From Gemmatales bacterium (lineage in GTDB: Bacteria > Planctomycetota > Planctomycetia > Gemmatales > HRBIN36), in the NCBI GenBank assembly GCA_041640595.1, contig JBEPZY010000002.1:372651-436650 (forward strand): a stretch of DNA of 64,000 bases, in the 5' to 3' direction. The notes beneath the pieces were generated by a model. It was not told the DNA's origin. It worked only from the letters and a program-made list of their open reading frames with translations, and did no database searches. Both the position numbers and the translations under genes were made by a program. Every line of letters starts with the position of its first letter. Position 1 is the stretch's first letter. Positions 15,265 through 35,626 of the stretch are shown piece by piece.

Positions 15265-15315
15265 GATTGCTCTCCGGTATAGATGTTGCATCTAATGTAG
15301 ATATAGATGGCCCAT

Positions 15316-20366: not shown

Positions 20367-21383
20367 TCAGGCCGACGTCAGCAACCAGCGGGCCAGCGAG
20401 AAGTAGGCGTACAGTGTCGCGATATCGGTCAGGGTCAGCACCAATGGGCCGGCAGCCACGCGCGGATCGAGACGGAGCAAGCGAAGCAGTGCCGGTGCCG
20501 CTACGCCGAGACTCGCCGCTGCTGTAACCCCCAAACTGATGCCGCCCAAAACACTCAGCGCGATTCGACTTTCGCCCGGCCAGAACCAGGCCACGCCTCC
20601 GACCGCGAGCCCGGCAGCCAGGCCGAGCAGCAGACCGGTCTGCACTTCCTGCCACAAACGCTGGTGCAGGGTTTGCCAGCTAATCCGTTCAACGTGGAGC
20701 AATTGCAGCATCAAGCTCACCGACTGAACGGAAACCGCTTCCGCCAGGGAAAGCACCACCGGAATAAATAAGGCCAGGGCGACGGCGCGGCTCAATTCCG
20801 ACTCGAACAGGCCCGATAGCACCGCTGCTATCAGTCCCCCGACGATGTTGCAGGTCAGCCAGGGGAAGCGGGCCCGGAAAGCCCGGGTTGGTTGCGTTTG
20901 CCGCGCCGCCTCCAGGTGCACACCGATAAGCTGGAACAGGTCGTCCCAGCGTTGTTCCAGGCCGGCTCGTTCCTCGGAGTACAGTTCGATGTCCACCACC
21001 CCGAGCATCCGGCCGGTTTCGTCCACTACCGGAAATGCCAGGTAGCGATGCAGCACGAAGAATTCGCAAGCATCCAGCAGCGTCGCCTCGGCCGGGATGG
21101 TGATGACGTTGGTCACCATGATTTCTCGAATTCGGCGATCCGGTGGACTCAGAAGCAGCCGTCGTGTCGGTACTACACCGAGAAGCCGGCCGGAATCGTC
21201 CAGCACGTACAGATAGATGATCCGGCTTTGCAGCTTTTGCGAACGCAGCGATTCGATAGCCTCGGCGACGGTCTGATCCGCACGCAACACGGCAAAATCC
21301 TGGCGCATGTAACGGGTCACCGGCTCGTCCAGCCGGGCACGACACAGATGCAGTGGTTCCGAAGCAGCATGGTCGTTGTTCAT
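20367..21383 (-). CDS. mgtE: Magnesium transporter MgtE family (CBS pair + membrane domain)
   Basis: 'IIYLYVLD..GRLLGVV', 'R.PWL', 'FIPVVL', 'DP..AAGP.V.TLTD'. Confidence 0.88.
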   Translation of the reverse strand: MNNDHAASEPLHLCRARLDEPVTRYMRQDFAVLRADQTVAEAIESLRSQKLQSRIIYLYVLDDSGRLLGVVPTRRLLLSPPDRRIREIMVTNVITIPAEATLLDACEFFVLHRYLAFPVVDETGRMLGVVDIELYSEERAGLEQRWDDLFQLIGVHLEAARQTQPTRAFRARFPWLTCNIVGGLIAAVLSGLFESELSRAVALALFIPVVLSLAEAVSVQSVSLMLQLLHVERISWQTLHQRLWQEVQTGLLLGLAAGLAVGGVAWFWPGESRIALSVLGGISLGVTAAASLGVAAPALLRLLRLDPRVAAGPLVLTLTDIATLYAYFSLARWLLTSA

Positions 21384-21636
21384 CGAGAAAGCTCCTTGCA
21401 AAGTCGCAGGCATCATAAGCAACAGACCCGGCAAAAATCTACAGCGTCTGTCCAACCACTCTCGCCGCCGGCTCCGCTTGCGATAGTGCCGGGAATCAGC
21501 CCCATGCGAGATTTTCCGCTCTTAACGCCATCAACCGTAGGCGCACACCTGGCTTTGGACTTATTGAGCCGTCATATGAACGGGAACAGGCGAGAGCTGG
21601 ATGGGCTAATGCAACGTGCCGGAATCAGCACGCACA

Positions 21637-22380
21637 CTATCGCTGAGCTTCGCGAGTGAGCCTCTCCCATAGCTCGGGTTCGCTCTTCCTTCTCAGCTCC
21701 CAACGGTACGAATCGAGCCAGGAGAGCAAAAGAATACCGGCAACCCTAAACTGCCCATCCTCGTCTTTAGTTGCATCAATCGTGTAGTTGACGGCAAGTT
21801 TATAGTCCAGAATCGCGTAAGCACCGCGGCGAAACTCATAACCCGGTATCTGGGGCTGTGCACCTACTGTTTTCCACTCCTCGCGAAGAAGTTTCAATAA
21901 TCGCTGCGGACTTTTCTGGTTGATGATACCCAGTCGGCGGAATTCCGCTCGCAAATAAAGTTCCAGTTCTCGCAAGTCCTTGGCCGGATAAAGCCGAGTT
22001 ATAAAGACGAGAAAGACCTTTTCCGCGTCTTTACGCCCCCCAGCACGCACATGAACTACGCCCTCAGGTTCGAAACGCCAAACCCATTCTTTCCTGCTCG
22101 GCGCAGTAACTCGCATTACATACTCTGGTCGAGGCTGTTTTGGCAACTTGTCATCAAATTCGTCGTACACGTAATCGTACTCGTACAAGCGTATGCCCTC
22201 TTCGTCCTCATCCACAAGTGTCCACGGAATGCCGCTACTAGCTCGAAGAGGTTGACCAATACCGACCACGATATGACGTATAGGTCGTCGTGCAGGGTCC
22301 GGCTGGTCATCTGCTGAGACAGCAAAGTGCGAAATTTGCTGAAGTCCCTGGGCAAGCACTAACACTATCACCGTAAGCAT
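21637..22380 (-). CDS. Exported hypothetical protein, candidate immunity protein
   Basis: 247 aa, hydrophobic N-terminus, AAGGGGG RBS directly after the stop of a short upstream remnant ORF (22393-22587). Confidence 0.6.
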   Translation of the reverse strand: MLTVIVLVLAQGLQQISHFAVSADDQPDPARRPIRHIVVGIGQPLRASSGIPWTLVDEDEEGIRLYEYDYVYDEFDDKLPKQPRPEYVMRVTAPSRKEWVWRFEPEGVVHVRAGGRKDAEKVFLVFITRLYPAKDLRELELYLRAEFRRLGIINQKSPQRLLKLLREEWKTVGAQPQIPGYEFRRGAYAILDYKLAVNYTIDATKDEDGQFRVAGILLLSWLDSYRWELRRKSEPELWERLTREAQR

Positions 22381-22564
22381 AACTAACCCCCTTTATCCAG
22401 CGGGCAAGTTACGGTTTTGTATAATCCGCCTGAGCAGGGTGTTTGGCATCTTGTAAAAAGAAAGTGCTCTGATCTCTTCCTTGACCAAGTTCGGTTCGTT
22501 CTTCCAAAGTTTACGGGGCCATGATTCTTCTCCACGAAAATGTGTATCGCATCCAGCAATGTGC

Positions 22565-23080
22565 TTACTTCGGAATTCTGGTGGCAATTACGTAACAAAC
22601 AGGTGGCGAGCCCTTGTCCCAGTTGAACGTAAAATTCTTGGGTGTTTCACGGACTGCAAGCTTGCCTTGCGGATAAAAAGCGATCACCAGCTTATCTTCA
22701 ACAAACTTATAAATGGCCTTTAAATAAACCTTCTCCTTATCCCGCAACTCCAACCGCGCTGGCTTCTCTTCGGGATAAGAACTCCAGATTAGTTCCTTTT
22801 CCACCCGTTTCGCAGCATAGTGTCCGCACAGGAAAAAAGTACCGTCTTTTTTGAACGTACAAAAGCCTACTCCAAAAACTAAATAATCTGGGTCCAGTTT
22901 GTCCTCTGGGCAGCAGTTGACCACGCTGTCTCTGAACCACCAACTACCAATGAGGTGTTCATCTAGCATTGGTTTGCTTATCCTGTCTTCTCCTGGCAGC
23001 ACGCTACAGGCGATTACGACCATTAAAAAGCTTGTCACAAGGCTCCCCACTAGCGATACACGTCCAAGACGGATTAACAT
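22565..23080 (-). CDS. Planctomycete TIGR03067-like exported protein, candidate immunity protein
   Basis: Signal/lipoprotein N-terminus, 'L.G.W', 'KAIYKF.EDKL.IA....G...P..F' pattern. Confidence 0.6.
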   Translation of the reverse strand: MLIRLGRVSLVGSLVTSFLMVVIACSVLPGEDRISKPMLDEHLIGSWWFRDSVVNCCPEDKLDPDYLVFGVGFCTFKKDGTFFLCGHYAAKRVEKELIWSSYPEEKPARLELRDKEKVYLKAIYKFVEDKLVIAFYPQGKLAVRETPKNFTFNWDKGSPPVCYVIATRIPK

Positions 23081-23118
23081 TGGAAGTCTCCTTATCCAGG
23101 TCTGAGTGTGCTTATTGC

Positions 23119-23646
23119 CTATTGCTTACCACCCTCGCCAGGGACGCGGCGATAAATCACAATTTCCGGCTGACCCATGCGAATATAGTCGTCAATATCT
23201 TTAGGAAAGTCTGAGGGGCGTTTATCTTCTGGTTTGTTCAAGACTTTTTCCCACAGGTAGCAGTTATCCAGGAAACACAGAAGTTCCACAACTTCTTTTC
23301 GTCTATCGTTTTTCACCTCCAGTAAGAGGTAGAACTTCTGCTCGCCTAACTCCTTGATGGAGTATTTACCGGTTTGGTTGAAAAAGGCAGGATCCGAGGT
23401 CTTGCATGTAAAGGTGCCATCCTTTCTCAGAATCAGCCAGGCTTCCACCTTTTGGGGTGTGTACGGCACGCCTCCGGAGAACACAGCCGCATCGAAAAGC
23501 ACCCGCTCCGCCCGCCAAGTGCCGATAACCTCGTTCCGAGGCTCGGCCTCTACCCACAGTATGCCCAGTAGCCCTAGCATCGCTACCAAAGATGGTCTAA
23601 TCAGGAGTCCAAATGTAGCGGCGCGATTGGCGTACATGCTTTCCAC
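23119..23646 (-). CDS. Exported lipocalin-like hypothetical protein, candidate immunity for the upstream C-terminal domain
   Basis: Signal peptide, 'VIGTW', 'L.L.KDGTF', 'GKYSI'; starts 3 nt after the cassette stop. Confidence 0.65.
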   Translation of the reverse strand: MESMYANRAATFGLLIRPSLVAMLGLLGILWVEAEPRNEVIGTWRAERVLFDAAVFSGGVPYTPQKVEAWLILRKDGTFTCKTSDPAFFNQTGKYSIKELGEQKFYLLLEVKNDRRKEVVELLCFLDNCYLWEKVLNKPEDKRPSDFPKDIDDYIRMGQPEIVIYRRVPGEGGKQ

Positions 23647-23649
23647 CTT

Positions 23650-26181
23650 TTATCTAGGTACCAGCCAATTCAGCTGCATATCCTCCACTTCATACCTAGC
23701 CCAAAACCATTTTCCTGCTACCTTTTTCACTTTTCCGGTCACGTAAAATCCAAATTGCTTTTCGCATAGTTGTTGAGTGTTTGGGTCTTCGAACTTGACT
23801 TTGCCAAAATAACCAACGTTTACATATCCATCTCCTGGTCTATAAGCAAGCACAACTGTGACATAACTTCCTCGCTCGTTTTCGAAGGTTTGGCAATAAA
23901 GCTTTACGTCTTTTTCAAGCCAGAGTTGCCAGAGACGCTTGACAATGTCGGTCGCTTGGTCTATCCGCTCCTTAGTTTCAACTATCCGTCTTATTATGTC
24001 CATACCTTTCGATTGCAAGATTAGCTGCTTGAGACGGTCTGTAGCCTCTTGCTGCAGGTCTTTAAAAAGTTCCAGCGCGCCTTCCGTAATGTGCGTATTG
24101 TGAAACCTATCAACCAAAGCCAGAGCATTCAATCGAACGAATTCCATCTCGGTTTGTGGGACGGCAGTATCCTTATTCCTATGTCGTATGTATCCGCCCA
24201 CCCGGCTCAGGATCTGGTTAATTTCACTGCGCCAGTCCCAAATGGAGTTATTCGATACCAAGTTGTTTGGCGCAACGAATACTCGCCAAATCAGGTGGCG
24301 TTCATCTACGGAGGCGGTGTCGCGCACCCGCAGCTCAACATGATATTCCATATAACCAAGCTCGGAATAATCGTGATCTGTAGGTGGCCACTGCGGAGCC
24401 GTCGCAGGGTCAACTATAGTACCCGCGATTCGGCCCGTCGCTGCATCTATAATAAGCTGAGGGGGCAGATTTTCGGCCTCGAAGATCCAATCCGCATCGT
24501 CGCGGGCGGCCGTCGGAACCACCGCATCTATCTCCTCGCCCATCCAGGTCTCCACCACCAAGCCGTCTTCTAACAATATACGAGGATTGTCGAGGATCGT
24601 CCAGGTGAAGGTTCTCAGCTCAGCGTCGGGAATTGTTTCAACTTCTACCTGATATCCTACCTCCGGCTGAGCGGGTGAAGCATTCCGGTAAGCCACACGG
24701 CCTCGCAAAGCTCCGTTCTGTGCGTCCCAGACAATTCCTTGCGGTAGATTGGCAAAACGATACTCCACCGGTTGCCCAGAAACATTCTCGCCCGGCAGTT
24801 CAATGTACACCTCCTCGCCCTCTAAATTAGTCAGGTTCGGCGGTGCCGACCACCAGTCCTTATCCTGGACTGTCCAGGTGACCGTCCTCATATCCTCGCT
24901 CTCGCCATCAGTAACGCGAATGTTTATAATGAATTCCCTCACTCCTTCTATAGGGCCAACATTGCGATAAGAAACCGTTCCAGTAATGCGTCCTGTCGCC
25001 GAGTCTATTCTTAGACCCCGGGGCAGGTTATCCGCGGCATACGTCAAGCTGGCTCGCGTCGCGTCTTCCGCATTTATTTTCACATTTATATAGTCGCCTT
25101 CGCTGATAATAACATCCGGCACAACAGGAATCCTGTTCGTATCCTCAACCTGCCACCGGAACGTCTTGCTCTCCATACCTGTCCCGTCGTTCACGAAAAT
25201 GGTGACTTCCAAGGATCGGGCGTGACCATTGCTGGCAATGTTAGCGTAACTGACATAGCCATACACCAGCCCCGAGTTTGCAAAGTATTCCAGACCCAAT
25301 GGCAATCCCGAATAATGGATTACCAAAGTCTCCCCATCCATCCTGGCGACTGGGGGTATCCAGAAAATAAAATCGCCCTCCCTTGAAACTTGGTCAGATA
25401 TAGACCCTAACCTAGATGTGTCCCTAATCGTCCACGTGCAACTATCGCTTTGGAAACTATTCCCATCGCCTTCTTTGGTAACGGTGATAATAACATGAAA
25501 ATCCACCGGTGGGGCGTTGCTGGCCACATTACTGTAGGCGATATAACCTTGCAGATAGGCACCCGGTTCTCTGCCATCTTCTGCAACCTCAACATAGACA
25601 ACGTCAATGCCGTCCGGCAGACCGGTTACTGTATAGCTAAGCGCATTGCCTTGATCATCTACCAGTGGCCCAATATAGATGCTAACATAATCCCCCTCGG
25701 CATTATATAGATGCCAAGTGTTGTCGCTATTTCCCCAGGACTCTCCACCGCCATCACTGTCGTTCGTTCCCGGAAGTGGTTCATCCAAGTTCGGATTATC
25801 CTGGATGAGCCAGTTGAAGCTGATCGTTGAGGTGTCACCGTCGGCCTGGTTGACGACAGTGATAGTAACCCACAGGTTGACCTGGGGTTGTTCCGCAGTG
25901 GCAATGTTAGAATCTATCGTGCCACTAATAACGCCGATGCTGGAGTCTATACTTAGGCCAGCGGGAAGATTATAGGCACTAAACATCAAGGGGGCCTGGC
26001 TGTTCAGGCCGGCATACGCAGAACCCCAAAGCGATTGCAGGTCAAGATAGACATAGTCGCCTTCGCTATTAGATTGGTCGCCAGGACTAAGCAAGATATA
26101 GTCCGTATTGCGGATGGTCCATGTCGCCGATGTCGAGGCGGTCTCAACACCGTCGCTGACGGTCAGGGTGATGGTATATTC
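23650..26181 (-). pseudogene. 5'-truncated cassette: ~6 putative-Ig (He_PIG) repeats plus an unknown ~200-aa C-terminal domain
   Basis: Repeats 'A.NLP.GL.ID..TG.I.G'; frame opens mid-domain after a TAG at 26182-26184 (EYTITLTVSDG...) with no true start or leader. Confidence 0.8.
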
Positions 26182-26345
26182 CTAGGTAGCCACTAATATC
26201 CACTCAATGATGGCGTACGCTTAGGCCATTGACCGCTGCTTCCTTTGAATGGGGAATGTAGAGGGTGCGTTACAAGGCTCCTGATTTGCTGCTATGGCAA
26301 AAGCGTGCCGAAGATGCGTGCAGGTGGGATCATTGTCTCACAGTT

Positions 26346-27437
26346 TCATTCTTTCATACGCTGCCAAGGTTCACCCGTCCGCACATCTAAGAGCATAATA
26401 CTGTCAAAGACAATGCCGTCGCTGCCCGTCCCTACGGCAACCACGAAGTCGCCTGGTTTGAGGCTGCAACCACTGCAACTCCACGACTTAGACCATACAA
26501 CTTTCAAACGCTTGAGATCGTACAACGTGACTAGATTGGAATTCCAGACCACCATATAGGAATCCATCCCAGAACAAAGCACCTCAATAGCCGCGCGGTG
26601 ACTGATACCCTGAATTAGTGTCGAGCCAAGAACTTTGCCCTTTCGCCAATCCCACCATCGAAGTTCTCCAGTAAAATCCAACGCAAGCAGAACCCGATCA
26701 TCTGGTGTAAACGCTAACGCGGTGATACAGTCGTCTCCATCTGCCAGGCCGTCAGCAGTGAGCTTTCCCGTGCGTAGGTCGAGGACGTCTATTAGTTCCC
26801 CGTCCGATATAGCGAGATAGGCCCCATCATGAGAAAACGCACTTACCGGATAAGGCGGCCCAGGCATGCTCGTGCGATGCTCCTTGATTACCCGGCGAGT
26901 GCTGATATCTAAGACGACACAACTGATACCTTCCCAATTCTCAGTACGAGCGACGACAGCTGCGTATTTGCCGTCGGGAGATAGAGATAGTCGAAAGGCC
27001 GCGCGTCCACGCCATACAATCTCCGGCTGCGCGTGATTATCTCTTATAAGGATTGAGTAAAGCTTTCCTTCTGGGGTAAAATACAGCAATTGTCCCCGCG
27101 ATTGGGGCACCCAGGCGAACCCACAACGCTGTGCCCGCTCAGCATAGCGTTTCTCAAGCACGCCGGCCCGTGGGCCATTCCGGACTTCATAGTATTGATC
27201 CAGCACAATCTCTCTGACCGGTCGCCAGTTGCGTGTGTCACACACGAGAACAGTTCTATAGAGCGTATCACCGAAACGGCGTGTGGTTGTCATAGCTAAA
27301 TATTCGCCGTCTTCTGAAAATCTCGGATCACTTATCCACTCTCGGCGAAGAAACCAGAGACAGGAGTCGTTTCCAAAAATGATTGGCTCTTTATAAAGGA
27401 GCGCCATTGCCAAATATATAGCATATGCGATCGCCAT
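26346..27437 (-). CDS. Exported WD40/beta-propeller protein
   Basis: AGGAG RBS, hydrophobic N-terminus, 'FSEDGEYLA', 'LSPDGKYAA', 'FSHDGAYLA', 'ITALAFTPDD..L...G.LRWWD'. Confidence 0.85.
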   Translation of the reverse strand: MAIAYAIYLAMALLYKEPIIFGNDSCLWFLRREWISDPRFSEDGEYLAMTTTRRFGDTLYRTVLVCDTRNWRPVREIVLDQYYEVRNGPRAGVLEKRYAERAQRCGFAWVPQSRGQLLYFTPEGKLYSILIRDNHAQPEIVWRGRAAFRLSLSPDGKYAAVVARTENWEGISCVVLDISTRRVIKEHRTSMPGPPYPVSAFSHDGAYLAISDGELIDVLDLRTGKLTADGLADGDDCITALAFTPDDRVLLALDFTGELRWWDWRKGKVLGSTLIQGISHRAAIEVLCSGMDSYMVVWNSNLVTLYDLKRLKVVWSKSWSCSGCSLKPGDFVVAVGTGSDGIVFDSIMLLDVRTGEPWQRMKE

Positions 27438-27505
27438 GTTGGTCTCCTGTGATGGTTGGTTCCATATCTTTTCCTGTCCAGACACTTCTGAAGTTGTCCC
27501 GAATT

Positions 27506-28006
27506 CTAGTTCCAGCCCCACTCCGGCTGCGGTTTAGCCTTGGGAGGCGGCTTGAGGGTACCTAAATGTTCGTATGCGATCCGAGACGTGCCATCGGGCT
27601 GTGTATAGTACACCTTCACTTGTACGAACCAACGCGTGCCATCCCATATCGGTGCCACCAGGTTGGCTTGTAATGTAGCAGTACCACTCAACGGCCCATT
27701 CGGCTTCCAGTCTAAGTCTGGCTGCCCGCCGCCTATCGCAACGCGGGTAATTGCACTTCCATTTGGCACGGCTTGAAGCGTGACCGAAAAATTGTCACCC
27801 TTATTACCAGGAATCGCCACAGGATTCAGGACGACCTTGCCCCGGAGTGGGCGTGGCGCCTGCCGGGCAGGTCTACCCGGTAATTGCATCGCCAGAAGAT
27901 TAGCTACATTGAGCGGCGGTGGCCCGACTTGCCGTTCGCCTTCCGGCGGTTGTTGCAGCATCTGCGTACGGGCGGATTGGTAAGTTGGCTGGACCTTTAC
28001 TTGCAT
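27506..28006 (-). pseudogene. Orphan C-terminal cassette (QMLQQPPEG junction + beta-sandwich tip)
   Basis: Starts with YQSARTQMLQQPPEG; 36-bp DNA match to 29856-29891; then a variable domain. Confidence 0.75.
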
Positions 28007-28242
28007 TTTGGTTCAATCAAGTACGCCATTATTCTGTAAGACCCTAGCCTGTATCTTTATGATTCGAAGGCCATCTGCTGGACATCCAGTCATTTATCTG
28101 GTCTTCAGAGAAGTCCCCAGACCTGCGGTTCAGTCCCTTAGCACTACCTTGACCTGCCGAATCCATGCTTTACATTGTTCTCGCCTTGGGGACATTTTTG
28201 TCAAGTATTCGTCAAAATAGACCTAAATAACGCATTAGGGTT

Positions 28243-29361
28243 CTATCGTCGCAGAACAACTGGCTTAGCACTCCATTGTCTGGTCACCACGTCTATGCTT
28301 CGCAGTTGCAATCCGGCCTTGGATTGAATTAGCAGAGCACCCAGGTCTCCACGTTGATTTGTTGTGAACCGAGAAATCGCGCCCTCATCCGCCACCTGCT
28401 CTCTGAAAGAATGAGACCAGACCGGGCGAATAGTGGCTCCACACTCCAAAATTACAACATCCCGATCATCGTATAGTATTAACTGCGGTTTGTCGCCCTT
28501 TCTCAAGTACCGGAGATCAAGTGCGCCCCGAGGCGACAGCTCCACCGTTCCTAGTTCTGTACGATTTCCTAGGTCAAAAAAGTGTATAGTACCGTTGCGG
28601 TGCGAGCCGGCCAACGTCTTTCCGTCAGGGCTGAACGCTAAAGAGAAGTAATCGCCACTTGAATCCGCTTGCGACGCCAGTTCCATTGCTCCTTGGTGGG
28701 GCGCGGCTAAGTTGTAGATGAATATAGAATCGTAATCTGTAACTGCTAGCAGGTTGGAACAATCAGAGAAGCTACACGCCGGAGGTATTTGCGAGCGCAC
28801 AGAAAGGCTATTAATATGCAACACTTGTTTCCTAGAAGCAACCTCTAAAACCTGGACCCTGTAATCTTCTCCCGCCGCGTCCCAGGACACTAACGCCAAA
28901 TACTTGCCGTCTCGACTATATACCAATCTAATAACGGGCAAATTTAGGGAATCAACCATGACCCGTGCCTTTTGATTTTTTAGATCAACTTGCCAGAGGC
29001 TTTTTCTCTTCGATCCGTAAACGAGTGTATCAGGATTAGCCGGGTCCCATTCCAGGCCGACCAGACACTTTCCCTGGTGAACATCAACCGCGTCCTTGAA
29101 TATGCATTCCCCTGTCGTCGTGGAAAATACCAAAACTGTTAAATCGGTTACAGAAGGCAATTCTTGCCCTTGCTTGTGCTGCCACAAGGACTCGACAACG
29201 GCTAACAGCTTCCCGTCCTGGGACAGCTTAGGAAAATCAAAGAAACGCAGTTCAGCTTGTCTGCTGAATAGAGCACACCCATCTTGACTAAAGTTCAATC
29301 CTAGCCAGACGCCACAGGCCACCACATAGGCGCAGCATCGGATAATCGGGGTCATACGCAT
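28243..29361 (-). CDS. Exported WD40/beta-propeller protein
   Basis: Signal peptide; 'LSQDGKLLA', 'YSRDGKYLA', 'SLAFSPDGKTLAGS..NGTIHFFD'. Confidence 0.87.
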   Translation of the reverse strand: MRMTPIIRCCAYVVACGVWLGLNFSQDGCALFSRQAELRFFDFPKLSQDGKLLAVVESLWQHKQGQELPSVTDLTVLVFSTTTGECIFKDAVDVHQGKCLVGLEWDPANPDTLVYGSKRKSLWQVDLKNQKARVMVDSLNLPVIRLVYSRDGKYLALVSWDAAGEDYRVQVLEVASRKQVLHINSLSVRSQIPPACSFSDCSNLLAVTDYDSIFIYNLAAPHQGAMELASQADSSGDYFSLAFSPDGKTLAGSHRNGTIHFFDLGNRTELGTVELSPRGALDLRYLRKGDKPQLILYDDRDVVILECGATIRPVWSHSFREQVADEGAISRFTTNQRGDLGALLIQSKAGLQLRSIDVVTRQWSAKPVVLRR

Positions 29362-29425
29362 GAGAGTCCCCCCAGAAATTGGACCCGTTAATTCTATTCG
29401 CTCACCAGCCTCGTGTCTTGACGAG

Positions 29426-30358
29426 TTATGGCCTTCGGATTATCTGTCCATAGCCAAATTGGATGGAACCATCGGGTGCCATGATTGTGACTTTGACGTC
29501 CCAGCCCCAGGTATTTCGTGGAAAGTCGGGAAAATACCTACCTAAGTCCACAGCAGGTCCAAGCCCATTCCCCTGCACTGTCACTTGTATTTGTCCTTGT
29601 CCCTGTCCGTTGAGTTTAACGCCCCTGGGAAAATTGAAGTGCGCCTGGTTTGCACCGGTTATATTGACATCTATGATTTCCCCTCCAGGCACTCCGAGGC
29701 TTATGCTGATATTATAATTTTCGCCTGCTCGACCTGTGCCTGTCCCTGGATTTATTGTCACTTTCGCCCTCGGTATCCTCTTGCGTTGCTGAGCAACCAT
29801 TACCACCGATGCTAGCGCCTCACCAAAAACCGGCTGGGGTTCCTGATTACGCGGACCTTCCGGCGGTTGTTGCAGCATCTGCGCGCGGGCGCGCTGATAG
29901 GCGTCCCAGGCTTCGGTTTCCCTCTCCGTCCAGTCTCGCAGGGCGTTGTTGCGAGCTGTCTGGAATGCCGCTTCCAGGATTTGCCGTGTGTGCCCCAGTT
30001 GGAAGTTGAGTTCGTCCAAGCGTTCTAAATATTGATTCCAGGCCTGCGAATCCGCCTGTATATAGGTGGACTCCGCCGCATTCATCGCCGCCTGCCATTC
30101 ATCATACGCCGCCTGCACTGCCTCTGCTCGCGCCGCTCCCGCCTGATCTAATGCAGTGTAGTATGCGGCGTAAGCCTCCGCCTCTTCATTAGCGTATTGC
30201 TCGTCTTGATACGAGTCTGCCAATCGCGCATCCCGCCTGGCTGCCGCCTCTGCATAGGCCTGGTCGCGCATGGCAGTGGCATACGCAATAGCATTGTCTA
30301 AGTCTTGCTGAGCTTGCTGATACGCCGCATAACCACCGGCATCATCGGCATGTTCCCG
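29426..30358 (-). pseudogene. Orphan cassette: Ala-rich coiled coil + QMLQQPPEG + beta-sandwich tip
   Basis: Frame opens after a TAG, 29 codons upstream of an internal Met (30271); shares a 101-bp block with 32441-32541. Confidence 0.78.
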
Positions 30359-30422
30359 CTAGCTGTGGCGCCGATAGCACCGATCCTATGGCGGATCCAA
30401 AGCCCACGACGGAACGGATTTG

Positions 30423-30785
30423 TCACTGCCTTTGTCCTTGGATTCTGGCCAGATACTCGCGGAATCGCTCCAGCACATGCTCCAGCCAGCCTATTGCAGT
30501 GTAGCCGTCGGCGCTGGGAAGATAATGAACACCCATGCTCTCGACCGGGTACCAATCATCTTTCTCTGGATGCTTCGATAAATACTCACGTGAAAAAGCT
30601 AAGTATTCTTCCAGCTGGTTGAGCACCTTCTGGACGTACTCCGGGCTGGTGTTGCTCAAGAACGCGTCTATCGCGCCTTCGGGTGAGCCGTAGTCGTCCA
30701 TAAAATCTTCGTGGAAATAGCCACCAAAAAACTGCCACAGTTCTGGCCATCTGTTTGTGCAATAATCATCAAGGCGCATTTCCAT
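30423..30785 (-). CDS. CdiI-type (CdiI_2 family) immunity protein
   Basis: 'EL.QFFGGYFHEDF..DY.S...AI..F' signature; acidic, 120 aa; 28 bp downstream of the RNase toxin stop. Confidence 0.85.
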   Translation of the reverse strand: MEMRLDDYCTNRWPELWQFFGGYFHEDFMDDYGSPEGAIDAFLSNTSPEYVQKVLNQLEEYLAFSREYLSKHPEKDDWYPVESMGVHYLPSADGYTAIGWLEHVLERFREYLARIQGQRQ

Positions 30786-30813
30786 GCTCCTTGCATTTCA
30801 CCTTAATTCCAGT

Positions 30814-32541
30814 CTAAGGATCAATATATGCAGTTTGAATTCTGAAGCCTAACGCAGATTTCGAATCCCTAAACAGCACAACTCTAACCTTATGTCCCCC
30901 CTGCAGCTGGCTAGCACCCCTGGCAAGCACCTGCCCAACAGGTTCTGAGAATTGTGTTTGGAGGGCCAGTGAGCGAGCCTCCTGGCCGGTTTGGCGCAAC
31001 CAATCGGCAATTTTGTCAGCATGTGCCTCCAGGACTCGGGCGATGTAATTCTCCGCTTCGTCCAGTGAACGAAAAGTACTGACTGTCGGAAGGTTTGGCT
31101 CTGCTTCCAAACGCTGGAGCAACTCCCTCAGGGACTTGCCCACGTGTTTTGAGATGGTATGCCCGCCAAGACTCTCGTGATAGAGTAAACCACTTTCATG
31201 CCCAAAAAATCGTTTGAGCCACTCCTTTTTGAGCTGGCCTGGTGTAGTGAACAGACGCCGGGAGAACATGAAACGATCTTCTAGCCCGGCGGGAAGCCGT
31301 GGCCCAACTCGGGTGCCGAGTATCACATTTCCATCTCCGGCTATCACCCACCGCCGACTGGCGTTAGCAACGTCGGAGGCGCTTTCCAGCGTCAGGGCTC
31401 CAGCACCCTTGCCTGCCGCTGATACGACAGATCCTTCGCCAGCAAGCAGCAAGTGGCGGGTGGGAGCAGTAAGGTCGTAGGCACGATGCAGGGTTATCGC
31501 TTTAGCACTGGAGTAAAAACCTGCACCCATGGATAGTCCTATATCTGTATATATGGCTGCCCTTTCAGCATGCTCAGGTGGCAGCACGAACTCGTAGCCG
31601 TAGCGCAACGCGCTCTGGGTAAACGTCTCGCGGTCCTTCCCATCTAGCATATTGCACCAGCCAGTGCGCAAGTTGTCCCAACCGTGAAACACCAGAAATG
31701 TCCCTGCGCCTTTCGTCGTCAGGCTCGGGTCAGGCGAAAGTATAAGTCCAGCTCCTCCAACCACTTCCAACGCACCTCCAACCATCATTAGTCCGTTTAC
31801 CACGTACCGGCGAATCCACGCCCGTACTCCCCCTGACTGGGCCGGCGTCGCACTTATCACTAAACTCATACCTATGGGGTAATAATCAATGTGCGAGTTA
31901 GAATCCTGCTCGCTAGTAGTATTCTGACTGCATGAAGTTTGCGCATGACCAAAGCTATCCTGGACAGGTAACAACAAATCCGCGGTCGGCATCTGCGACT
32001 CGTCCCCGGTATCATCAGATGAACAATTACCTTGGAAATTAGCGGAACCACAACAGCAACATCCTTCCAGATCGCGCAAGCTAACCCCGGCATCCAGCCG
32101 CACCTGTATGGGTAGGTCAGCGAAACGCTCGCCCAGCGTACGTGGAGCCACTAACAAACTATATGCGTGCACATAATTTTCCCAGGCCTCTAATTCCTGT
32201 TGCTGCCAGCGTTGCTCCGCAGCAGCAACTGAATCCTTAAACGCCGATTCTAAGTCCCGAACCATAGGCTCTAAATCTCTAACCAATCGGCTCAAACTAT
32301 CGCCATACGTATTCCAGGCTTGCGCCTCCGCTAGTTCGAACTCTGACCTTGCCCTCTGGATTGCGAATTCCCACACACTGTAGGCCGCCGCCTCCGCTTC
32401 GAACCATGCATCAGCAGCCCGACTAAGTGCAGCGGCATAAGCGGCGTAAGCCTCCGCCTCTTGATTAGCGTATTGTTCGTCTTGATATGGGTCTGCCAAT
32501 CGCGCATCCCGCCTGGCTCCCGCCTCCGCATAGGCATGGTC
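30814..32541 (-). pseudogene. Orphan toxin cassette: coiled coil + hydrophobic hairpin + bacterial RNase A-like (CdiA-CT type) toxin domain
   Basis: C-terminus 'HESLGGHTISKHVGKS..EL..RL.....VSTF....AE....VRVVL......GFRIQTAY'; frame opens after TAG-TGA at DHAYAEAG with no start codon. Confidence 0.85.
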
Positions 32542-32603
32542 TCACTACACCATGCTTTTCGCCTCGGTAGCAATAGATCACTATTGTTCGTCTGAATTAA
32601 CGC

Positions 32604-33836
32604 TTACTTCTTTGGATCGGCAGCAAGACCATCCACATACTGCTGGGGCACCTTCCATATGACAATGCGCCCTTGGGAACTTTGTTTGTCATTTTCGACG
32701 GCAGGACGTCTTCGCAGATGTGAGGAGATGGCGAGTTTTGTACCATCGCGGGAAATCGCGGCCACCCAAAATTCCCAATCAGGGTTACAAGATTCGGTTT
32801 TGCAGATGCGGCGTGCCTTCAGGTCCCAGACCTTCAGCACACTTCTTGTGACTTCTTCCTGCTCCGGCGGGTCGAATTCCTCGGCGAGCACGTATAGGTA
32901 GCGCCCGCTCGGACTTATACATCCGAATGGATAGTAACAATTCGAGTCCCGCAATATTAGGGAAGCCGGGGTCGGAATGACGAAGCTGGGTTGTTCCCAA
33001 TTCTCACAGGAATAAATTCGACATACCCCGTTGGCATAAATGGTTGCCAAAGTTTTGTCATCTTCACTGAGAGACATCCACATTAAACTATCAGTTACCA
33101 AGGGGTAAAGTGTGTGCAAAACTTGGCCGCGAACCACTTTTGGAGGAACGTCTTCCAGAATCCATGGCACAAGGATAGCCGGTGAACCAAAAGACTGATC
33201 AGACGCGAAAAGGAACTTGCCATGCCCAGGAACTATGAGCTGGTCAATCTGCGCTAGAGAGAGTCTTACCTCTGCAAAACATTGCCAATTAGTCACTGAG
33301 TAAAACTTGATCCGTGACTCAGGTAGTTTTGTCGGGTTTTGCGTGGTCGGCCCGTCGCCTTCTAGTGCCACTGCTAAATATTTCCCATCCCGGCTAAAGG
33401 CCAAACTCTCTACCCTAGTTTCACCGAAGTCTAGGACTCCTATCCTACGAAAATCCACCAGGCTGAAACACTCAACCTTGTTCTTCCATACACGAATTGC
33501 AAAATATCTTCCATCTCGAGAAACAGATTGCAGCCGCGGCCCAAATGAGTTAGAGGGTAACCACATTCTTCTAGAACTTTTGGACCTGAGATCATATACG
33601 ACTAATTCCTCGCCGGCTGTGTAAATCAGGCGGCTGCCATCCGTGCTAAACCCGAGTAGGCCAGCTGCACTTCCAGACTTTGGGCGTATTTCGTCTAGTT
33701 GTTCCCAATCTGCGTCTGGAACGTTAGGCACTTCCGCTTGCACTAGCCCAGAAAAGGCAAGCACCGCATGGACCACGAGAGTCGCAAAGTCCCAGAACCG
33801 TGCGTATTTCATTTGCTTCTGATGCGCTCGTTTCAT
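32604..33836 (-). CDS. Exported WD40/beta-propeller protein
   Basis: AGGAG RBS, signal peptide (..GLVQA), 'FSTDGSRL', 'VESLAFSRDGKYLA', 'LKVWDL'. Confidence 0.87.
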   Translation of the reverse strand: MKRAHQKQMKYARFWDFATLVVHAVLAFSGLVQAEVPNVPDADWEQLDEIRPKSGSAAGLLGFSTDGSRLIYTAGEELVVYDLRSKSSRRMWLPSNSFGPRLQSVSRDGRYFAIRVWKNKVECFSLVDFRRIGVLDFGETRVESLAFSRDGKYLAVALEGDGPTTQNPTKLPESRIKFYSVTNWQCFAEVRLSLAQIDQLIVPGHGKFLFASDQSFGSPAILVPWILEDVPPKVVRGQVLHTLYPLVTDSLMWMSLSEDDKTLATIYANGVCRIYSCENWEQPSFVIPTPASLILRDSNCYYPFGCISPSGRYLYVLAEEFDPPEQEEVTRSVLKVWDLKARRICKTESCNPDWEFWVAAISRDGTKLAISSHLRRRPAVENDKQSSQGRIVIWKVPQQYVDGLAADPKK

Positions 33837-33850
33837 ACACATTCTCCTAC

Positions 33851-34858
33851 TTACAATTTGCCCATTGCTTGATCGGCTGCCTGCAGATATTGCGCATAAG
33901 CTTCGTCCGCTAGATTCTGCACCGTGGCAACTGCGGTTTGCCAGCCGGAGTCGCGCTCATTCACGGCTTGCTGCACCGCGGTAATATAGATAGCGTTCGC
34001 CTGTTCGACACGCGCAACATAGGCGGGATAGGGATCCGTCTCCACCCGCCACTGGAAACTAATCTCCTCCCAGTCGCCGCTTACCGGGTCAGTAACTGTG
34101 AGAACCACCGTATAGTCGCGAATGTGTGATTCAGGAGTGACTAAGTCCGCGTCTATAGTCCTCTGTACCGTGCCATAGAGGGAGTCGAAACTTAGTCCCG
34201 AAGGCAGATTTTCATAACTAAACATCAAGGGGCCGGAGAAGCTGCCCTGCGTGTAACTCAGCTGCGGAGCGAAGAACACCGTCTCGCCGGGATGGCTAAC
34301 CAGCGTGCCGGGCGTCTCCACCGAAAAGGTGTTATCGAGAATAATAAACGGCACGATGGCCGACTCGGTTTCGGTGCCATCGGAGACCGTGATAGTGGCA
34401 TTATAGGTTACGGGTGAACCGTTACGTGGCACGGCACTGCGGAGAGCGGCACCACTAAACTCACCGGTGGTCGGGTCGTAACTAATGCCGGGTGGCAAGT
34501 CGCGGACACTAAACGTCAGACTCCCGGCCAGGTTCGGGTCATAAACGACACGAACATAAGCTTCGCCGCCATAAATCGGTTCGTCCTCATACTTAGTCAC
34601 GGCGGGCGAGGCCTCCAGAGTGAAATGATTCGCAGTCAAGGTGCGAGGCTCTAAGCGTCCGCATCACGCTAAGCATTACATAGAGGGCGAGGATTTCGGG
34701 TTCTAAGCATGGAAACTGCAATCGGACAGATGGGTGAGGCTTTACCTCGATGCGGAAAAGTTTACCGAACCATGCACGAAGCCAGGCGCAGAGCTTCCGT
34801 GTGTGTGTGTGTGTGTGTGCTGGTTGCACACACCGTCGGCGAAGTAGGGCGTGCTCAT
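33851..34858 (-). pseudogene. Disrupted head gene of the toxin array: LEPR-type leader, 2 He_PIG domains, start of the Ala-rich coiled coil, then truncated
   Basis: ATG 34858, (CA)10 tract, 'RKLCAWLRAWF..RLQFPCLE' in one frame and 'RLEPRTLTANHF' in the Ig frame; 'DLPPGISYDPTTGEFSG', 'ENLPSGLSFDS'. Confidence 0.75.
34799..34818. repeat. (GT)10 / (CA)10 dinucleotide microsatellite
   Basis: Read directly from the sequence. Confidence 0.97.
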
Positions 34859-35048
34859 AGTTGTGTCTGCTTTAGAACGTGGACGTGATGCTGAGTTGGG
34901 CCGCTGAACTTGCTTTTATCAAAAATCCGCGGCCGTCTCAAGAGGAAACTGAAAAATTTTTCTGCCGAGGAAATTTTCCTCAAGTCATTCCCGTAGCGTA
35001 GGTTGCGTCAGCGGCGCAAACTCGATAGGGAATTCGGGGCATGCCGAG

Positions 35049-35145
35049 GGCGGATGTTGAACCATGAAGCGGCACTGCGCTGACATATCCATGTCAACAA
35101 TCTTGTCAAAGCCCGGCGGATGTTGAACGATTAAGCGGCACTGCG
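35049..35145. repeat. 31-bp direct repeat pair separated by 35 bp
   Basis: GGCGGATGTTGAAC(C/G)AT(G/T)AAGCGGCACTGCG at 35049 and 35115. Confidence 0.85.
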
Positions 35146-35370
35146 GGGGCTGGCCAATACCGTTCGCCGTGCGTTTGCATTCGCACGCGGAGCTAAGCGA
35201 AACACCCACGGCACCGGCACCCCGATGCCGTCCGCCGTTGGTTTGCTCACACACCCAGCGTGTATTCGACCTGCGTTGGCGGGAATAGGGCAGGTTTGCG
35301 GATACCGTTAGCAAGTCAGCCAATCAGGCGAGTGATGCTAGAAATTAATTCGCATATTTGCCGGTCAAGC

Positions 35371-35560
35371 ATGCGGTGAGGCGACGTTGCCAAAGCCCGA
35401 AACATGGCTCAAAAGAAAAAGGGGGATTCCAGCTCCCACGAAATGCAGTGAGAGGACGTTGCGAAAGCCCGAAACACGGTGTCGAAATAACATTCTCCTA
35501 CAATTGGGATGGGTGAACGAACATTTAGCCAAAGCCCAAAACATGGTGTCGAAATAACTT
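35371..35560. repeat. Three degenerate ~70-bp tandem units
   Basis: AAAGCCC(G/A)AAACA(T/C)GG x3; TGTCGAAATAAC x2. Confidence 0.75.
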
Positions 35561-35626
35561 CCTATAGCGGGAAGGGATGTCACCTCCAATCGAAACGGAA
35601 TTGCGAAAACTCCATAGCAGCGTTGG

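What the first reader, a model, noticed from the sequence alone, without database searches (positions are those of the whole stretch)
21637..34858. Candidate new planctomycete polymorphic toxin system on a LEPR-leader / He_PIG / coiled-coil chassis
Seen in sequence, in transcription order (minus strand): a broken head gene (leader ending LEPRTL, 2 He_PIG, start of an Ala-rich helix) > WD40 > start-less cassette with RNase tip > CdiI > start-less cassette with tip A > WD40 > cassette with tip B > WD40 > start-less He_PIG x6 cassette with tip C > small exported proteins. Established: this alternation of orphan C-terminal cassettes and cognate immunity genes defines CdiA, Rhs and MafB loci; LEPRxLL-like motifs mark large planctomycete exoproteins. 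Inference: overlapping the fragments reconstructs a delivery protein (leader, Ig stalk, coiled coil, junction, variable tip) with no recognisable haemagglutinin, RHS/YD, PAAR or LXG region. That points to a toxin class with its own export route. I cannot confirm novelty without a search.
Basis: partly seen in the sequence, partly recalled or inferred. Interest (0 to 1): 0.92.

Follow-up and report, generated by a model that had tools for sequence, protein, structure and literature searches.

The report
Planctomycete polymorphic toxin cassette island
This low-GC island is a store of swappable toxin tips and matching protection genes for a family of planctomycete surface proteins built on a long coiled-coil hairpin, a design that looks undescribed although the general strategy is well known.

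Summary
On the minus strand of 21637-34871 lie a broken head gene, four C-terminal cassettes that lack an export leader, and an intact partner gene after each. One cassette ends in a CdiA-CT RNase A domain (Pfam 9.5e-29) followed by CdiI_2 (1e-16).

The reconstructed protein exists intact elsewhere in the same genome, at C8:40421-42781 (786 aa). It has a leader, two He_PIG domains, a 300-aa Ala/Tyr/Trp-rich segment, a Pro-rich junction and a tip. Relatives carry the window's tip B, an A-like tip or the RNase tip on the same trunk.

The trunk models confidently (pLDDT 96) as an antiparallel helical hairpin of two arms of about 140 residues. It matches no Pfam, NCBIfam or solved-structure family. 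I found it in 18 of 267 genomes of the order and in 0 of 400 other genomes of the phylum.

The "own export route" is not supported. The leader is the known planctomycete export motif, on 27 long ORFs of this genome, and no transporter gene is linked. The He_PIG x6/tip C cassette belongs to a second chassis without the coil. Tips A and B are plain Ig-like sandwiches, so their toxicity, and immunity by the beta-propeller partners, is inferred.

Verdict: a real polymorphic toxin/immunity island and a new variant of a known kind.

The parts
34903..35254 (-). Non-coding region upstream of the head gene, shared with a second toxin locus
   Evidence: 92% nt identity over 354 nt to C3:561317-561669, which lies just upstream of the C3 head gene. 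The ORF 34985-35323 that overlaps it has no family hit.
34799..34819 (-). (CA)10 dinucleotide tract inside the 5' end of the head ORF (reads HTHTHT)
   Evidence: TRF reports (GT)10.5. Tract length is 4 in the intact C8 copy, 5 in L037, and 10 in L039 and the window. P0001 and P0002 read two and three HT pairs.
34593..34829 (-). Head gene, 5' piece: GTG start and the basic/hydrophobic leader up to 'LQFPCLEP', then out of frame
   Evidence: Translation and alignment to the intact C8 copy.
34662..34713 (-). 52-nt insertion that duplicates the LEP motif and shifts the frame of the head leader
   Evidence: DNA alignment to C8; coordinates. The same insertion is in L037 and L039.
33851..34663 (-). 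Head gene body: '..RLEPRTLTANHF', two He_PIG Ig domains, and the first 61 positions of the coil profile, then a premature end
   Evidence: He_PIG 2.9e-12. 93% aa identity to C8 residues 38-300. Coil profile positions 1-61 only.
32604..33842 (-). Partner gene 1: beta-propeller-like protein (412 aa) with a hydrophobic N-terminus; its tip has been lost
   Evidence: Sub-threshold WD40/PD40 propeller hits, best 1.2e-8. The N-terminus reads '...ATLVVHAVLAFSGLVQAEV'. An RNA-library contig covers 32674-33862.
30814..32541 (-). Orphan cassette: about 150 aa of the coil's C-terminal arm, the junction, a region of about 300 aa with a Gly-rich hydrophobic stretch, and a CdiA-CT RNase A-like domain (30826-31164)
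   Evidence: RNAse_A_bac 9.5e-29. PDB 5e3e_B 1.5e-10. The first 104 nt are 94% identical to C8:41669-41772. P0005 is a full-length relative, 915 aa.
30423..30785 (-). CdiI_2 immunity gene (120 aa, no signal sequence)
   Evidence: PF18593 1.1e-16, 61.8 bits against a cut-off of 26.7.
29426..30358 (-). Orphan cassette: the coil from the hairpin apex onwards, the junction 'QMLQQPPEG', and tip A (Ig-like, about 115 aa)
   Evidence: 86% nt identity over 492 nt to C8:41586-42077. Tip A is homologous to tip B and to the tip of P0003 (29% identity, A5).
28243..29361 (-). Partner gene 2: beta-propeller protein (372 aa) with a hydrophobic N-terminus
   Evidence: Beta-prop_THOC3 4.4e-23; ANAPC4_WD40 27.4 bits against a cut-off of 22.9. 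An RNA-library contig covers 28396-29867.
27506..28012 (-). Orphan cassette: only the last residues of the coil, the junction, and tip B (Ig-like)
   Evidence: 93% identical to the C-terminus of the full-length P0002. The model is a 7-strand sandwich, pLDDT 73.
26346..27521 (-). Partner gene 3: beta-propeller-like protein (probable ATG at 27437)
   Evidence: Propeller hits, best 9.1e-10. Its orthologue (35% identity, E 5e-67) follows a tip-B-like cassette in G003.
23650..26181 (-). 5'-truncated cassette of a second chassis: the end of one He_PIG unit, six He_PIG units, a helical segment, and the beta-rich tip C
   Evidence: He_PIG 1.6e-30. 96% nt identity over 410 nt to the C3 head, and 96% over 887 nt to C3:568916-569802. 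P0158 is the longest relative, 1047 aa, and lacks the coil.
21637..23646 (-). Three small ORFs with hydrophobic N-termini (175, 171 and 247 aa) after tip C; candidate partners
   Evidence: Translations. Weak TIGR03067 hit for 22565-23080 (E 0.0011, below cut-off). A TIGR03067-like exported ORF also follows a tip remnant in G017.

Best explanation
The island is an orphan-cassette and immunity-gene array of a polymorphic toxin system.

The working protein is intact at C8 of this genome, not in the window. From N to C terminus it has:
- the planctomycete N-terminal export motif (LxFExLExRxxP);
- two He_PIG Ig-like domains;
- an Ala/Tyr/Trp-rich antiparallel coiled-coil hairpin with two arms of about 140 residues (roughly 20 nm at 0.15 nm per helical residue). 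Stalk and tip sit at its base, and a conserved 'WxEHPDD' loop forms its apex;
- a Pro-rich junction ('AWxxYxxAxxxMLQxPPEGxR');
- an exchangeable C-terminal effector.

The gene just downstream protects the producer. A cytosolic CdiI_2 does this for the RNase tip. Proteins with signal-like N-termini, mostly beta-propellers, do it for tips presumed to act in the envelope.

Each orphan cassette keeps a nested stretch of the coil's C-terminal arm, 60 to 490 nt at 86-94% identity to the C8 gene. Homologous recombination can therefore place a new tip and its immunity gene behind the expressed head. The fourth cassette (He_PIG x6 with tip C) does the same for a second head type, at C3, using a He_PIG unit as its handle.

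The window's own head is dead: a 52-nt insertion in the leader and loss of all but the first 61 positions of the coil, together with the tip. Here the island therefore serves as a silent tip reservoir and as a bank of intact immunity genes.

Shown: the architecture, the variable tips on a conserved trunk, the tip-partner coupling, the orphan handles, and the RNase/CdiI_2 identity.

Inferred: export to the surface, toxicity of tips A to D, immunity by the propellers, any role of the hairpin apex, and recombination as the swapping mechanism.
For: Known toxin parts:
- RNAse_A_bac 9.5e-29 and CdiI_2 1.1e-16; PDB 5e3e_B 1.5e-10.
- In the same genome, the same leader/He_PIG front end carries PT-HINT (2.1e-17) with an orphan HINT-end cassette, and a CDI_toxin_EC869_like cassette (2.3e-14) beside an LRR partner.

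Intact paralogue and relatives:
- The paralogue is at C8:40421-42781.
- 11 of 8000 scored candidates are homologues. P0002 is full length with tip B, P0003 has an A-like tip, P0005 has the RNase tip, and P0001, P0004, P0006 and P0008 have other tips. All diverge right after the junction.

Wider sample:
- 26 coil-bearing ORFs whose match reaches the 3' part of the coil profile (position 300 or beyond of 327), from 24 loci, carry many unrelated tips. 20 of the 26 have a downstream ORF with a hydrophobic N-terminus by a crude rule.

Tip-partner coupling:
- A tip-B-like cassette in G003 (55% identity) is followed by the orthologue of partner 3 (35% identity, E 5e-67, against 23% to partner 2).
- Tip D is followed by the same 255-261-aa exported protein in C8 and L037.

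Recombination handles and context:
- A contig in run X3 joins coil sequence (29906) to tip B (27982), that is tip B in a longer-trunk context.

Trunk:
- Model pLDDT 96.2, helices 6-147, 152-192 and 198-304.

Leader:
- The motif is on 27 of 3287 long ORFs, against 0-1 in 5 shuffles.
- Motif-bearing proteins of T. immobilis fractionate with the cell-envelope fraction (passages of PMC8567305).
Against: - The window's head gene cannot make an exported protein, so nothing in the window shows present activity.
- Tip B is a generic Ig-like sandwich with no toxin relative: best Foldseek E 6.6e-3 and best VIA Z 7.9, both in the chance range. It was found only on this chassis.
- Most tips have no family. 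Of 14 tips scanned alone at E up to 0.5, only a Chlam_PMP repeat and a beta-propeller passed cut-offs, and Aspzincin_M35 was sub-threshold. Of 22 coil-family proteins and cassettes scanned, only one showed a C-terminal enzyme, a calpain. Part of the family could therefore be non-toxic surface heads.
- The other enzyme-like tips (HExxH, GHSQG, NCHGxT) are motifs I read by eye.
- The propeller hits are below most curated cut-offs.
- No secretion or transporter gene is linked.
- Signal sequences were judged by eye or by a crude hydrophobicity rule, not by a predictor.
Confidence: 0.8

Rival explanations
1. This is a family of modular surface proteins with exchangeable non-toxic heads for adhesion or kin recognition. 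The Ig-like tips A and B bind polymorphic beta-propeller partners on the producer or on neighbouring cells. The RNase/CdiI_2 cassette is a minority passenger on the same scaffold.
For: Tip B folds as a plain Ig/IPT-like sandwich. Other tips in the family are Ig-like, PMP-repeat beta-helix or beta-propeller. Ig stalks and the PF07595-type leader are typical of planctomycete surface proteins. The partners diverge strongly from one another, 19-26% identity.
Against: Arrays of leaderless C-terminal cassettes, each with its own downstream gene, are the signature of toxin/immunity systems. The same trunk carries an RNase A toxin with CdiI_2. The same front end carries PT-HINT and EC869-like toxins. 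The localisation logic fits immunity: a cytosolic partner for the nuclease, exported partners for the rest.
Confidence: 0.13
2. The island is a decayed remnant with no present function. A former toxin locus was inactivated by insertion and deletion, and its cassettes and partner genes are drifting pseudogenes.
For: The head has a 52-nt frameshifting insertion and has lost all but the first 61 positions of its coil and its tip. The same insertion is fixed in related metagenome contigs. The cassettes lack leaders. The paralogous loci C8 and C3 also hold remnants.
Against: All four partner genes next to the coil cassettes and all cassette ORFs are open over 120-843 codons. Partner 3 and tip B are conserved as a pair in another species. 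RNA-library contigs cover the three propeller genes and the small ORFs, though that library may hold DNA. Orphan arrays behind silent or absent heads are normal for CdiA, Rhs and MafB loci (recalled, and stated in the abstract of PMC3482391).
Confidence: 0.05
3. It is a divergent member of an already described delivery class (CdiA/TpsA, Rhs, LXG, MafB or colicin/S-pyocin) whose marker domain was missed.
For: The RNase tip and CdiI_2 are families named after CdiA systems. A coiled-coil hairpin with a C-terminal nuclease and an immunity gene recalls colicins (recalled).
Against: No marker family of these classes was reported for the head, the intact C8 protein or 22 relatives in Pfam or NCBIfam. 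The trunk profile finds nothing among PDB sequences, best E 0.19. Its model matches only generic long coiled coils. No CdiB-like gene was found in the window ORFs scanned.
Confidence: 0.02

Closest known systems
Polymorphic toxin systems, Sec/T2SS-dependent class (Zhang, de Souza, Anantharaman, Iyer, Aravind 2012, PMC3482391; abstract and passages seen)
   Same: A secreted multidomain protein with a conserved N-terminal and central part, a hypervariable C-terminal toxin, an immunity gene directly downstream, and stand-alone cassettes that recombine. Planctomycetes are listed there for many toxin and immunity families.
   Different: The part held (the first 300,000 characters) has no occurrence of He_PIG, WD40 or coiled-coil. 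Beta-propellers are listed only as repeats inside toxins. The coiled-coil hairpin as pre-toxin module and recombination handle, the PF07595-type leader, and beta-propeller partners are not described there.
CdiA-CT/CdiI orphan arrays, including the RNase A-like CdiA-CT/CdiI pair of PDB 5e3e
   Same: The same toxin family (PF18431, 9.5e-29) and immunity family (PF18593), and orphan CT/immunity modules downstream of a head gene.
   Different: No TPS domain, FHA repeats, VENN motif or CdiB partner was found. The handle is a coiled coil, not the pretoxin-VENN region.
Colicins and S-type pyocins (recalled from general knowledge, not tested by homology)
   Same: A long antiparallel coiled-coil hairpin between the N-terminal part and a C-terminal cytotoxic domain, so that both sit at the same end of the hairpin, with an immunity gene next door.
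   Different: No sequence or specific fold match. This family has an N-terminal export motif and Ig domains, is chromosomal with orphan cassettes, and has no lysis gene.
Rhs/YD and MafB polymorphic toxins with orphan cassettes
   Same: Arrays of 5'-truncated C-terminal cassettes, each with an immunity gene.
   Different: No RHS/YD repeats, PAAR or MafB-N (DUF1020) was reported. One paralogue uses PT-HINT, a known pre-toxin module.
Planctomycete surface proteins with the N-terminal RRLxxExLExRxLLA / LxLExLExRxxP motif (Pfam PF07595; Studholme 2004 as cited in PMC8567305)
   Same: The same kind of N-terminal motif followed by Ig-like or cadherin-like repeats.
   Different: PF07595 itself is not reached (12-13 bits against a cut-off of 25.5). 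Those proteins were described as giant surface proteins, not as carriers of exchangeable toxins.

Membership tests
Polymorphic toxin system (sensu Zhang et al. 2012) | A conserved N-terminal/central region with a hypervariable C-terminal domain among homologues | tested here: met
   The alignments A2 and A8 are conserved up to 'AWxxY...P..P...R' and unrelated after it. Different tips occur on P0001-P0006 and P0008 and on 26 coil-bearing ORFs.
Polymorphic toxin system (sensu Zhang et al. 2012) | A cognate gene immediately downstream that co-varies with the tip | tested here: met
   RNase with CdiI_2. Tip B with partner 3, conserved in G003. Tip D with the same exported protein in C8 and L037. 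Immunity function itself was not tested.
Polymorphic toxin system (sensu Zhang et al. 2012) | Stand-alone 5'-truncated cassettes that share a homology handle with the full-length gene | tested here: met
   Handles of 60-490 nt at 86-94% identity to C8, and of 410 and 887 nt at 96% to C3. Orphans also occur in L029, L033, L035 and L037.
Polymorphic toxin system (sensu Zhang et al. 2012) | At least one C-terminal domain of a recognised toxin family | tested here: met
   RNAse_A_bac 9.5e-29 and 5e3e_B 1.5e-10. Tips A, B, C and D have no family.
CdiA/CdiB two-partner (T5SS) contact-dependent inhibition | An N-terminal TPS secretion domain, FHA repeats, a VENN pretoxin motif, and a CdiB transporter gene | tested here: not met
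   None of these families was reported for the head, the C8 protein, the cassettes or the window ORFs scanned.
Rhs/YD toxins | RHS/YD repeat shell, often with PAAR or VgrG linkage | tested here: not met
   No RHS, YD or PAAR hit.
LXG / T7SS toxins | An N-terminal LXG helical domain and a T7SS context | tested here: inconclusive
   There is no LXG Pfam hit. The helical trunk model gave only generic coiled-coil matches. No profile-profile test was available.
Colicin / S-pyocin | Homologous T and R domains; a plasmid or pyocin context with immunity | tested here: inconclusive
   No sequence match and no colicin among the Foldseek rows shown. The likeness in design is recalled, not measured.
Pfam PF07595 Planc_extracel (planctomycete export motif) | A match over the curated cut-off (25.5 bits) at the N-terminus | tested here: not met
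   C8 head 12.3 bits and C3 head 13.3 bits; control genomes also ring at this level. However, the published Gemmataceae-type pattern fits with F at position 3, and a strict regex finds 27 sites against 0-1 in shuffles. P0043, a coil-family member, scores 20.5 bits.
CdiA-CT RNase A (PF18431) with CdiI_2 (PF18593) | Both families over curated cut-offs in adjacent genes | tested here: met
   101 bits against 27, and 61.8 bits against 26.7. A second fragment pair lies on C9.

The most novel reading that the evidence does not exclude
An order-restricted class of planctomycete interbacterial weapons that works like a surface-tethered colicin. The general planctomycete export motif brings the protein out. 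A conserved coiled-coil hairpin with arms of about 140 residues serves as a reach/receptor-contact device through its invariant apex loop and also as the recombination handle. Small Ig-like tips paired with fast-evolving exported beta-propeller proteins form a new toxin/immunity (or recognition) pair type. The (CA)n tract in the start of the head gene may switch expression on and off.
Probability: 0.3. Interest if true: 0.8.

Novelty: new variant of a known kind. Interest (0 to 1): 0.58.

Why it matters
Planctomycetes have unusual cell envelopes, and the path taken by proteins with their N-terminal export motif is unknown. How they compete with neighbours is largely unstudied.

This family offers a compact, multi-copy cargo of about 800 aa with a known toxic read-out (RNase A tip with CdiI_2). 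That cargo could be used to follow the export route and to test whether contact-dependent or diffusible antagonism occurs in the phylum.

It also adds three things:
- a pre-toxin module I found in no family library or solved structure (a confidently modelled long helical hairpin);
- a set of tips with no family assignment;
- exported beta-propellers as candidate immunity proteins.

If tips A and B are not toxins, the pairs would instead be candidates for a polymorphic cell-cell recognition system.

Tried and rejected
- **Complex prediction** of tip B with partner 3: no verdict, score 0.00. This is no evidence either way.
- **ESM Atlas** for tip B and tip C: no usable hit.
- **Foldseek and VIA** for tip B and Foldseek for the coil: only generic Ig-like or long coiled-coil matches.
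- **PDB sequence search** for tip C and the coil profile: nothing.
- **The search of protein representatives**: the alignment A4 let Ig/cadherin columns into the profile (929 positions). The 5712 hits are therefore mostly Ig-repeat proteins and give no family size. 21 of the 150 best listed have their best stretch in the coil part of the profile, by my reading of the table. I fetched and read 15 new ones.
- **The search for related loci** with A2 failed for both collections because no stretch was conserved enough. I repeated it with A3 on metagenome contigs only. Genome contigs was not rescanned; the genome search was used instead.
- **PF07595** on the own genome: below cut-off.
- **Read laying**:
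  - The two X2 joints (26181 to 34971, and 30348 to 33866) have short sides (37-39 letters). They match the arrangement of the paralogous C3 and C8 loci, so I do not count them as recombinants.
  - RNA-library contigs gave little or no cover over 30373-32240 (CdiI_2 and the RNase cassette), which proves nothing.
  - Contigs break at the (CA)n tract, so tract heterogeneity could not be read.
- **Partner 1 against the propeller of L037**: only 21% identity, so the lost tip of the window's head cannot be named.
- **The search of earlier findings**: nothing on this system.
- **Rfam** on 20000-38000: no match.

Full report
**Observation**

- **Head gene.** It starts at a GTG (34829) and reads 'VQPAHTHTHTRKL...VRLQFPCLEP'. 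It then leaves frame and resumes as '..RLEPRTLTANHFTLEASP...' in the ORF 33851-34663.
- **What the head contains.** That ORF holds He_PIG (2.9e-12) and matches only positions 1-61 of the 327-position coil profile before a stop.
- **Downstream genes, in order:**
  - a beta-propeller-like protein with a hydrophobic N-terminus (32604-33842);
  - a leaderless cassette ending in RNAse_A_bac (9.5e-29, 101 bits against a cut-off of 27);
  - CdiI_2 (1.1e-16);
  - the tip A cassette, then a propeller;
  - the tip B cassette, then a propeller;
  - an 843-codon open frame with six He_PIG-like units and a beta-rich end (tip C);
  - three small ORFs with hydrophobic N-termini.
- **Composition.** The island has 51.6% GC against 59.4% for the rest of the window.
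- **Flanks.** They are ordinary planctomycete genes: MgtE, thioredoxin/TPR, a PAS-GAF response regulator, and DUF1501/PSD1/PSCyt2.

**The head is broken, and an intact copy exists**

Aligning the 5' end with the paralogue on contig C8 shows two differences. One is a (CA)n tract 12 nt longer, which stays in frame. The other is a 52-nt insertion (34662-34713) that duplicates the LEP motif and shifts the frame. The same insertion is present in the metagenome contigs L037 and L039, so it is real. The head also ends 61 positions into the coil.

C8:40421-42781 is an uninterrupted 786-codon gene, 93% identical to the window's head over residues 38-300. It continues through about 300 residues of Ala/Tyr/Trp-rich sequence to 'QMVQQPSEDPR' and a 222-aa tip D. 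An exported 261-aa ORF and a cassette remnant follow it.

**It is a polymorphic system**

*Variable tips on a conserved trunk.* A word-based search with the C8 protein found 11 proteins at E up to 0.001 among 8000 scored candidates.

- They share the trunk at 45-85% identity and differ after the junction.
- P0002 is full length and carries the window's tip B (93% identity). P0003 carries an A-like tip. P0005 (915 aa) carries the hydrophobic region and the RNase A tip. P0001 carries tip D.
- P0004 carries another tip, and P0006 and P0008 share a further one.

*Nested handles.* The window's cassettes keep nested lengths of the trunk. Tip A starts at the hairpin apex, the RNase cassette about 30 residues later, and tip B only at the junction. 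At DNA level these handles are 86-94% identical to C8 over 60-490 nt.

*Partner genes travel with their tips.*

- In G003, a tip-B-like cassette (55% identity) is followed by a propeller that is 35% identical (E 5e-67) to the one after the window's tip B. It is only 23% identical to the one after tip A.
- Tip D is followed by the same exported protein in C8 and L037.
- Another tip in L037, and tip E in L035, are each followed by a propeller and then by a further orphan.
- In G017, from the sister family, a 777-aa head is followed by small exported ORFs, then an orphan with a propeller, then a remnant with a TIGR03067-like ORF.

*Wider tabulation.* Across 24 loci, 26 coil-bearing ORFs whose match reaches position 300 or beyond of the 327-position coil profile carry many unrelated tips. 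20 of the 26 have a downstream ORF with a hydrophobic N-terminus. That count uses a crude rule of mine, not a signal-peptide predictor.

*Population hint.* A contig of run X3 joins coil sequence at 29906 to tip B at 27982. Tip B therefore also occurs behind a longer trunk in another population.

**The same front end carries classical toxins in this genome**

- C3:420845-425941 (1698 aa) has the leader 'LRFEQLEDRTAPA', He_PIG-like sequence, PT-HINT (2.1e-17) and a tip. An ORF, an orphan HINT-end cassette and another ORF follow it.
- C3:561713-570451 has the leader 'RLQFEPLENRSLP', He_PIG, a Gly/Thr-rich low-complexity linker and a cassette with CDI_toxin_EC869_like (2.3e-14). A second cassette there starts in the same linker and is followed by an LRR protein.

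The window's He_PIG x6/tip C cassette belongs to this second chassis:

- Its first 410 nt are 96% identical to the C3 head, and a further 887 nt to C3:568916-569802.
- Its longest relative, P0158 (1047 aa), begins just after the leader position. It reads He_PIG x2, a Pro-rich linker, He_PIG x6, a helical part and tip C, with no Ala-rich coil.
- All three relatives found carry the same tip C. Variability is therefore seen in what follows the linker, not in tip C itself.

**The trunk**

With 17 sequences (A8), AlphaFold2 gives pLDDT 96.2, with helices 6-147, 152-192 and 198-304.

- The model is one long antiparallel hairpin with arms of about 140 residues. At 0.15 nm per helical residue that is roughly 20 nm.
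- The turn is at the conserved 'W-x-E-H-P-D-D', so the Ig stalk and the tip both sit at the base.
- Pfam and NCBIfam report nothing for this region.
- The profile finds nothing among PDB sequences, best E 0.19.
- Foldseek finds only generic long coiled coils: chemoreceptor, SMC/MukB arms, dynein stalk. None has E at or below 0.001.

The likeness to the receptor-binding hairpin of colicins is a recalled analogy, not a measured one.

**Distribution**

| Query and scope | Genomes with a match | Threshold |
|---|---|---|
| C8 protein, 41 nearest genomes | 6 of 41 (incl. own); 3 of 3 other genomes of the genus | E ≤ 1e-5 |
| Coil profile A7, whole order | 18 of 267 (incl. own) | E ≤ 1e-6 |
| Coil profile A7, even sample of the phylum | 0 of 400 other genomes | E ≤ 1e-8 |

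Within the order, the matches fall in 3 of 14 genomes of the own family (all in the own genus), 14 of 252 of the sister family, and 10 of 96 genera. In the phylum search at most 5 candidates per genome were scored. Several genomes hold multiple copies, for example six matches in G618.

Family members use various stalks: He_PIG, Big_9/cadherin-like, Calx-beta and DUF7948.

**The tips**

- **Recognised families.** Only the RNase A tip (PDB 5e3e_B 1.5e-10) and a calpain domain in P0077 (3.8e-11) are recognised enzyme families. Aspzincin_M35 is sub-threshold in L068.
- **Motifs by eye.** HExxH, GHSQG and NCHGxT in other tips are my reading only.
- **Tips A and B.** They are homologous to each other, at 29% identity. 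Tip B models as a 7-strand sandwich, pLDDT 73 from only 4 sequences. Its matches are generic Ig/IPT, with best Foldseek E 6.6e-3 and best VIA Z 7.9. It was found only on this chassis.
- **Tips C and D.** They have no family.

The toxin reading for these tips rests on context: the cassette-plus-partner layout, and the localisation logic. The RNase partner has no signal sequence, while the other partners have hydrophobic N-termini.

**Export**

The leader is not new. Passages of PMC8567305 describe the motif RRLxxExLExRxLLA (Pfam PF07595, citing Studholme 2004, which I did not see) and a variant LxLExLExRxxP. That variant is on 52 proteins of Tuwongella immobilis. 20 of them were detected, and 8 of those only in the SDS-soluble fraction.

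PF07595 itself is not reached here: 12-13 bits against a cut-off of 25.5, and control genomes ring at that level. The pattern L.[LFVIM]E.LE.R..P, however, occurs 27 times in 3287 long ORFs, nearly all near N-termini, against 0-1 in five shuffles. The toxin heads therefore use the general route of planctomycete surface proteins. No transporter gene lies beside the island. 'Its own export route' is unsupported.

**Literature**

I searched for:

- polymorphic toxin with Planctomycetes (18 papers);
- motif strings;
- PF07595 (2 papers);
- Planctomycetes, toxin, immunity protein and He_PIG.

Zhang et al. 2012 (PMC3482391; abstract start and passages, first 300,000 characters held) lists planctomycetes for many toxin and immunity families under the Sec/T2SS class. 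It has no occurrence of He_PIG, WD40 or coiled-coil, and names beta-propellers only as repeats within toxins.

I found no description of this chassis. The library holds open-access papers only.

**Verdict**

The finding is real. It is best read as a polymorphic toxin/immunity cassette island (confidence 0.8) on a chassis whose coiled-coil module appears undescribed. That makes it a new variant of a known kind.

In this genome the island itself is a silent reservoir and immunity bank, and the live gene is on C8. Still open are the activity of tips A to D, the role of the propellers, the delivery step and the export machinery.

Noticed in passing
window 34799-34819: A (CA)n tract lies just after the GTG start of the head gene. 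Its length is 10 here and in L039, 4 in the intact C8 copy and 5 in L037 (out of frame). P0001 and P0002 read two and three HT pairs. It may be a slipped-strand on/off switch. The only out-of-frame case, however, is in a copy already broken by the 52-nt insertion, and contigs break at the tract.
   Followed up: partly
L016 1-371 (C8:39500-39870) and L014 383-641 (C3:560882-561140): Tandem repeats of period 74/148 nt (C8) and 72 nt (C3) lie upstream of the two other head genes. None was found upstream of the window's head. Their function is unknown.
   Followed up: partly
G000 C2:540, C2:41642, C2:227331, C3:549532 (own genome, outside the window's island): Four long ORFs share a near-identical leader, 'LNVWRMCLG...QL[RG]FEQLEDRTVPATFLVR[DN]I'. 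This is a multi-copy family on the same export motif that may be another variable surface or toxin family.
   Followed up: no
L035 and L036, 5' end of the head gene: In these metagenome copies the leader is out of frame with the GTG start. The cause is a one-base difference in an A run (GGTAACTTTT against GGTAAACTTTT), not the CA tract. The source's gene call for this gene (P0004) starts after the leader.
   Followed up: partly
G000 C9:36351-37011 (L015): A second RNase A-tip fragment (42% identity) lies directly before a CdiI_2-like ORF (5e-12). No trunk sequence was matched there.
   Followed up: partly
window 13969-15786: TadE-like (4.3e-11) and TadE/G-like Tad (5.6e-9) pseudopilin genes lie about 6 kb from the island, separated from it by housekeeping genes. 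No link to the island was shown.
   Followed up: no
G000 C8:34227-38050: Long ORFs that look like a type III CRISPR Cas10 and a RAMP protein, read by eye only, lie just upstream of the intact C8 toxin locus.
   Followed up: no
window 55551-59315: A 1254-aa protein with strong canonical WD40 repeats (2e-46). It is unrelated in quality of match to the divergent island propellers.
   Followed up: no
runs X1-X22: Seven DNA runs from seven studies hold half or more of the sampled words of 26300-35300, and nine further DNA runs hold 31-46%. Most are labelled hot-spring or microbial-mat metagenomes. Partial shares fit strains that carry different cassette sets, but only four runs were laid.
   Followed up: partly
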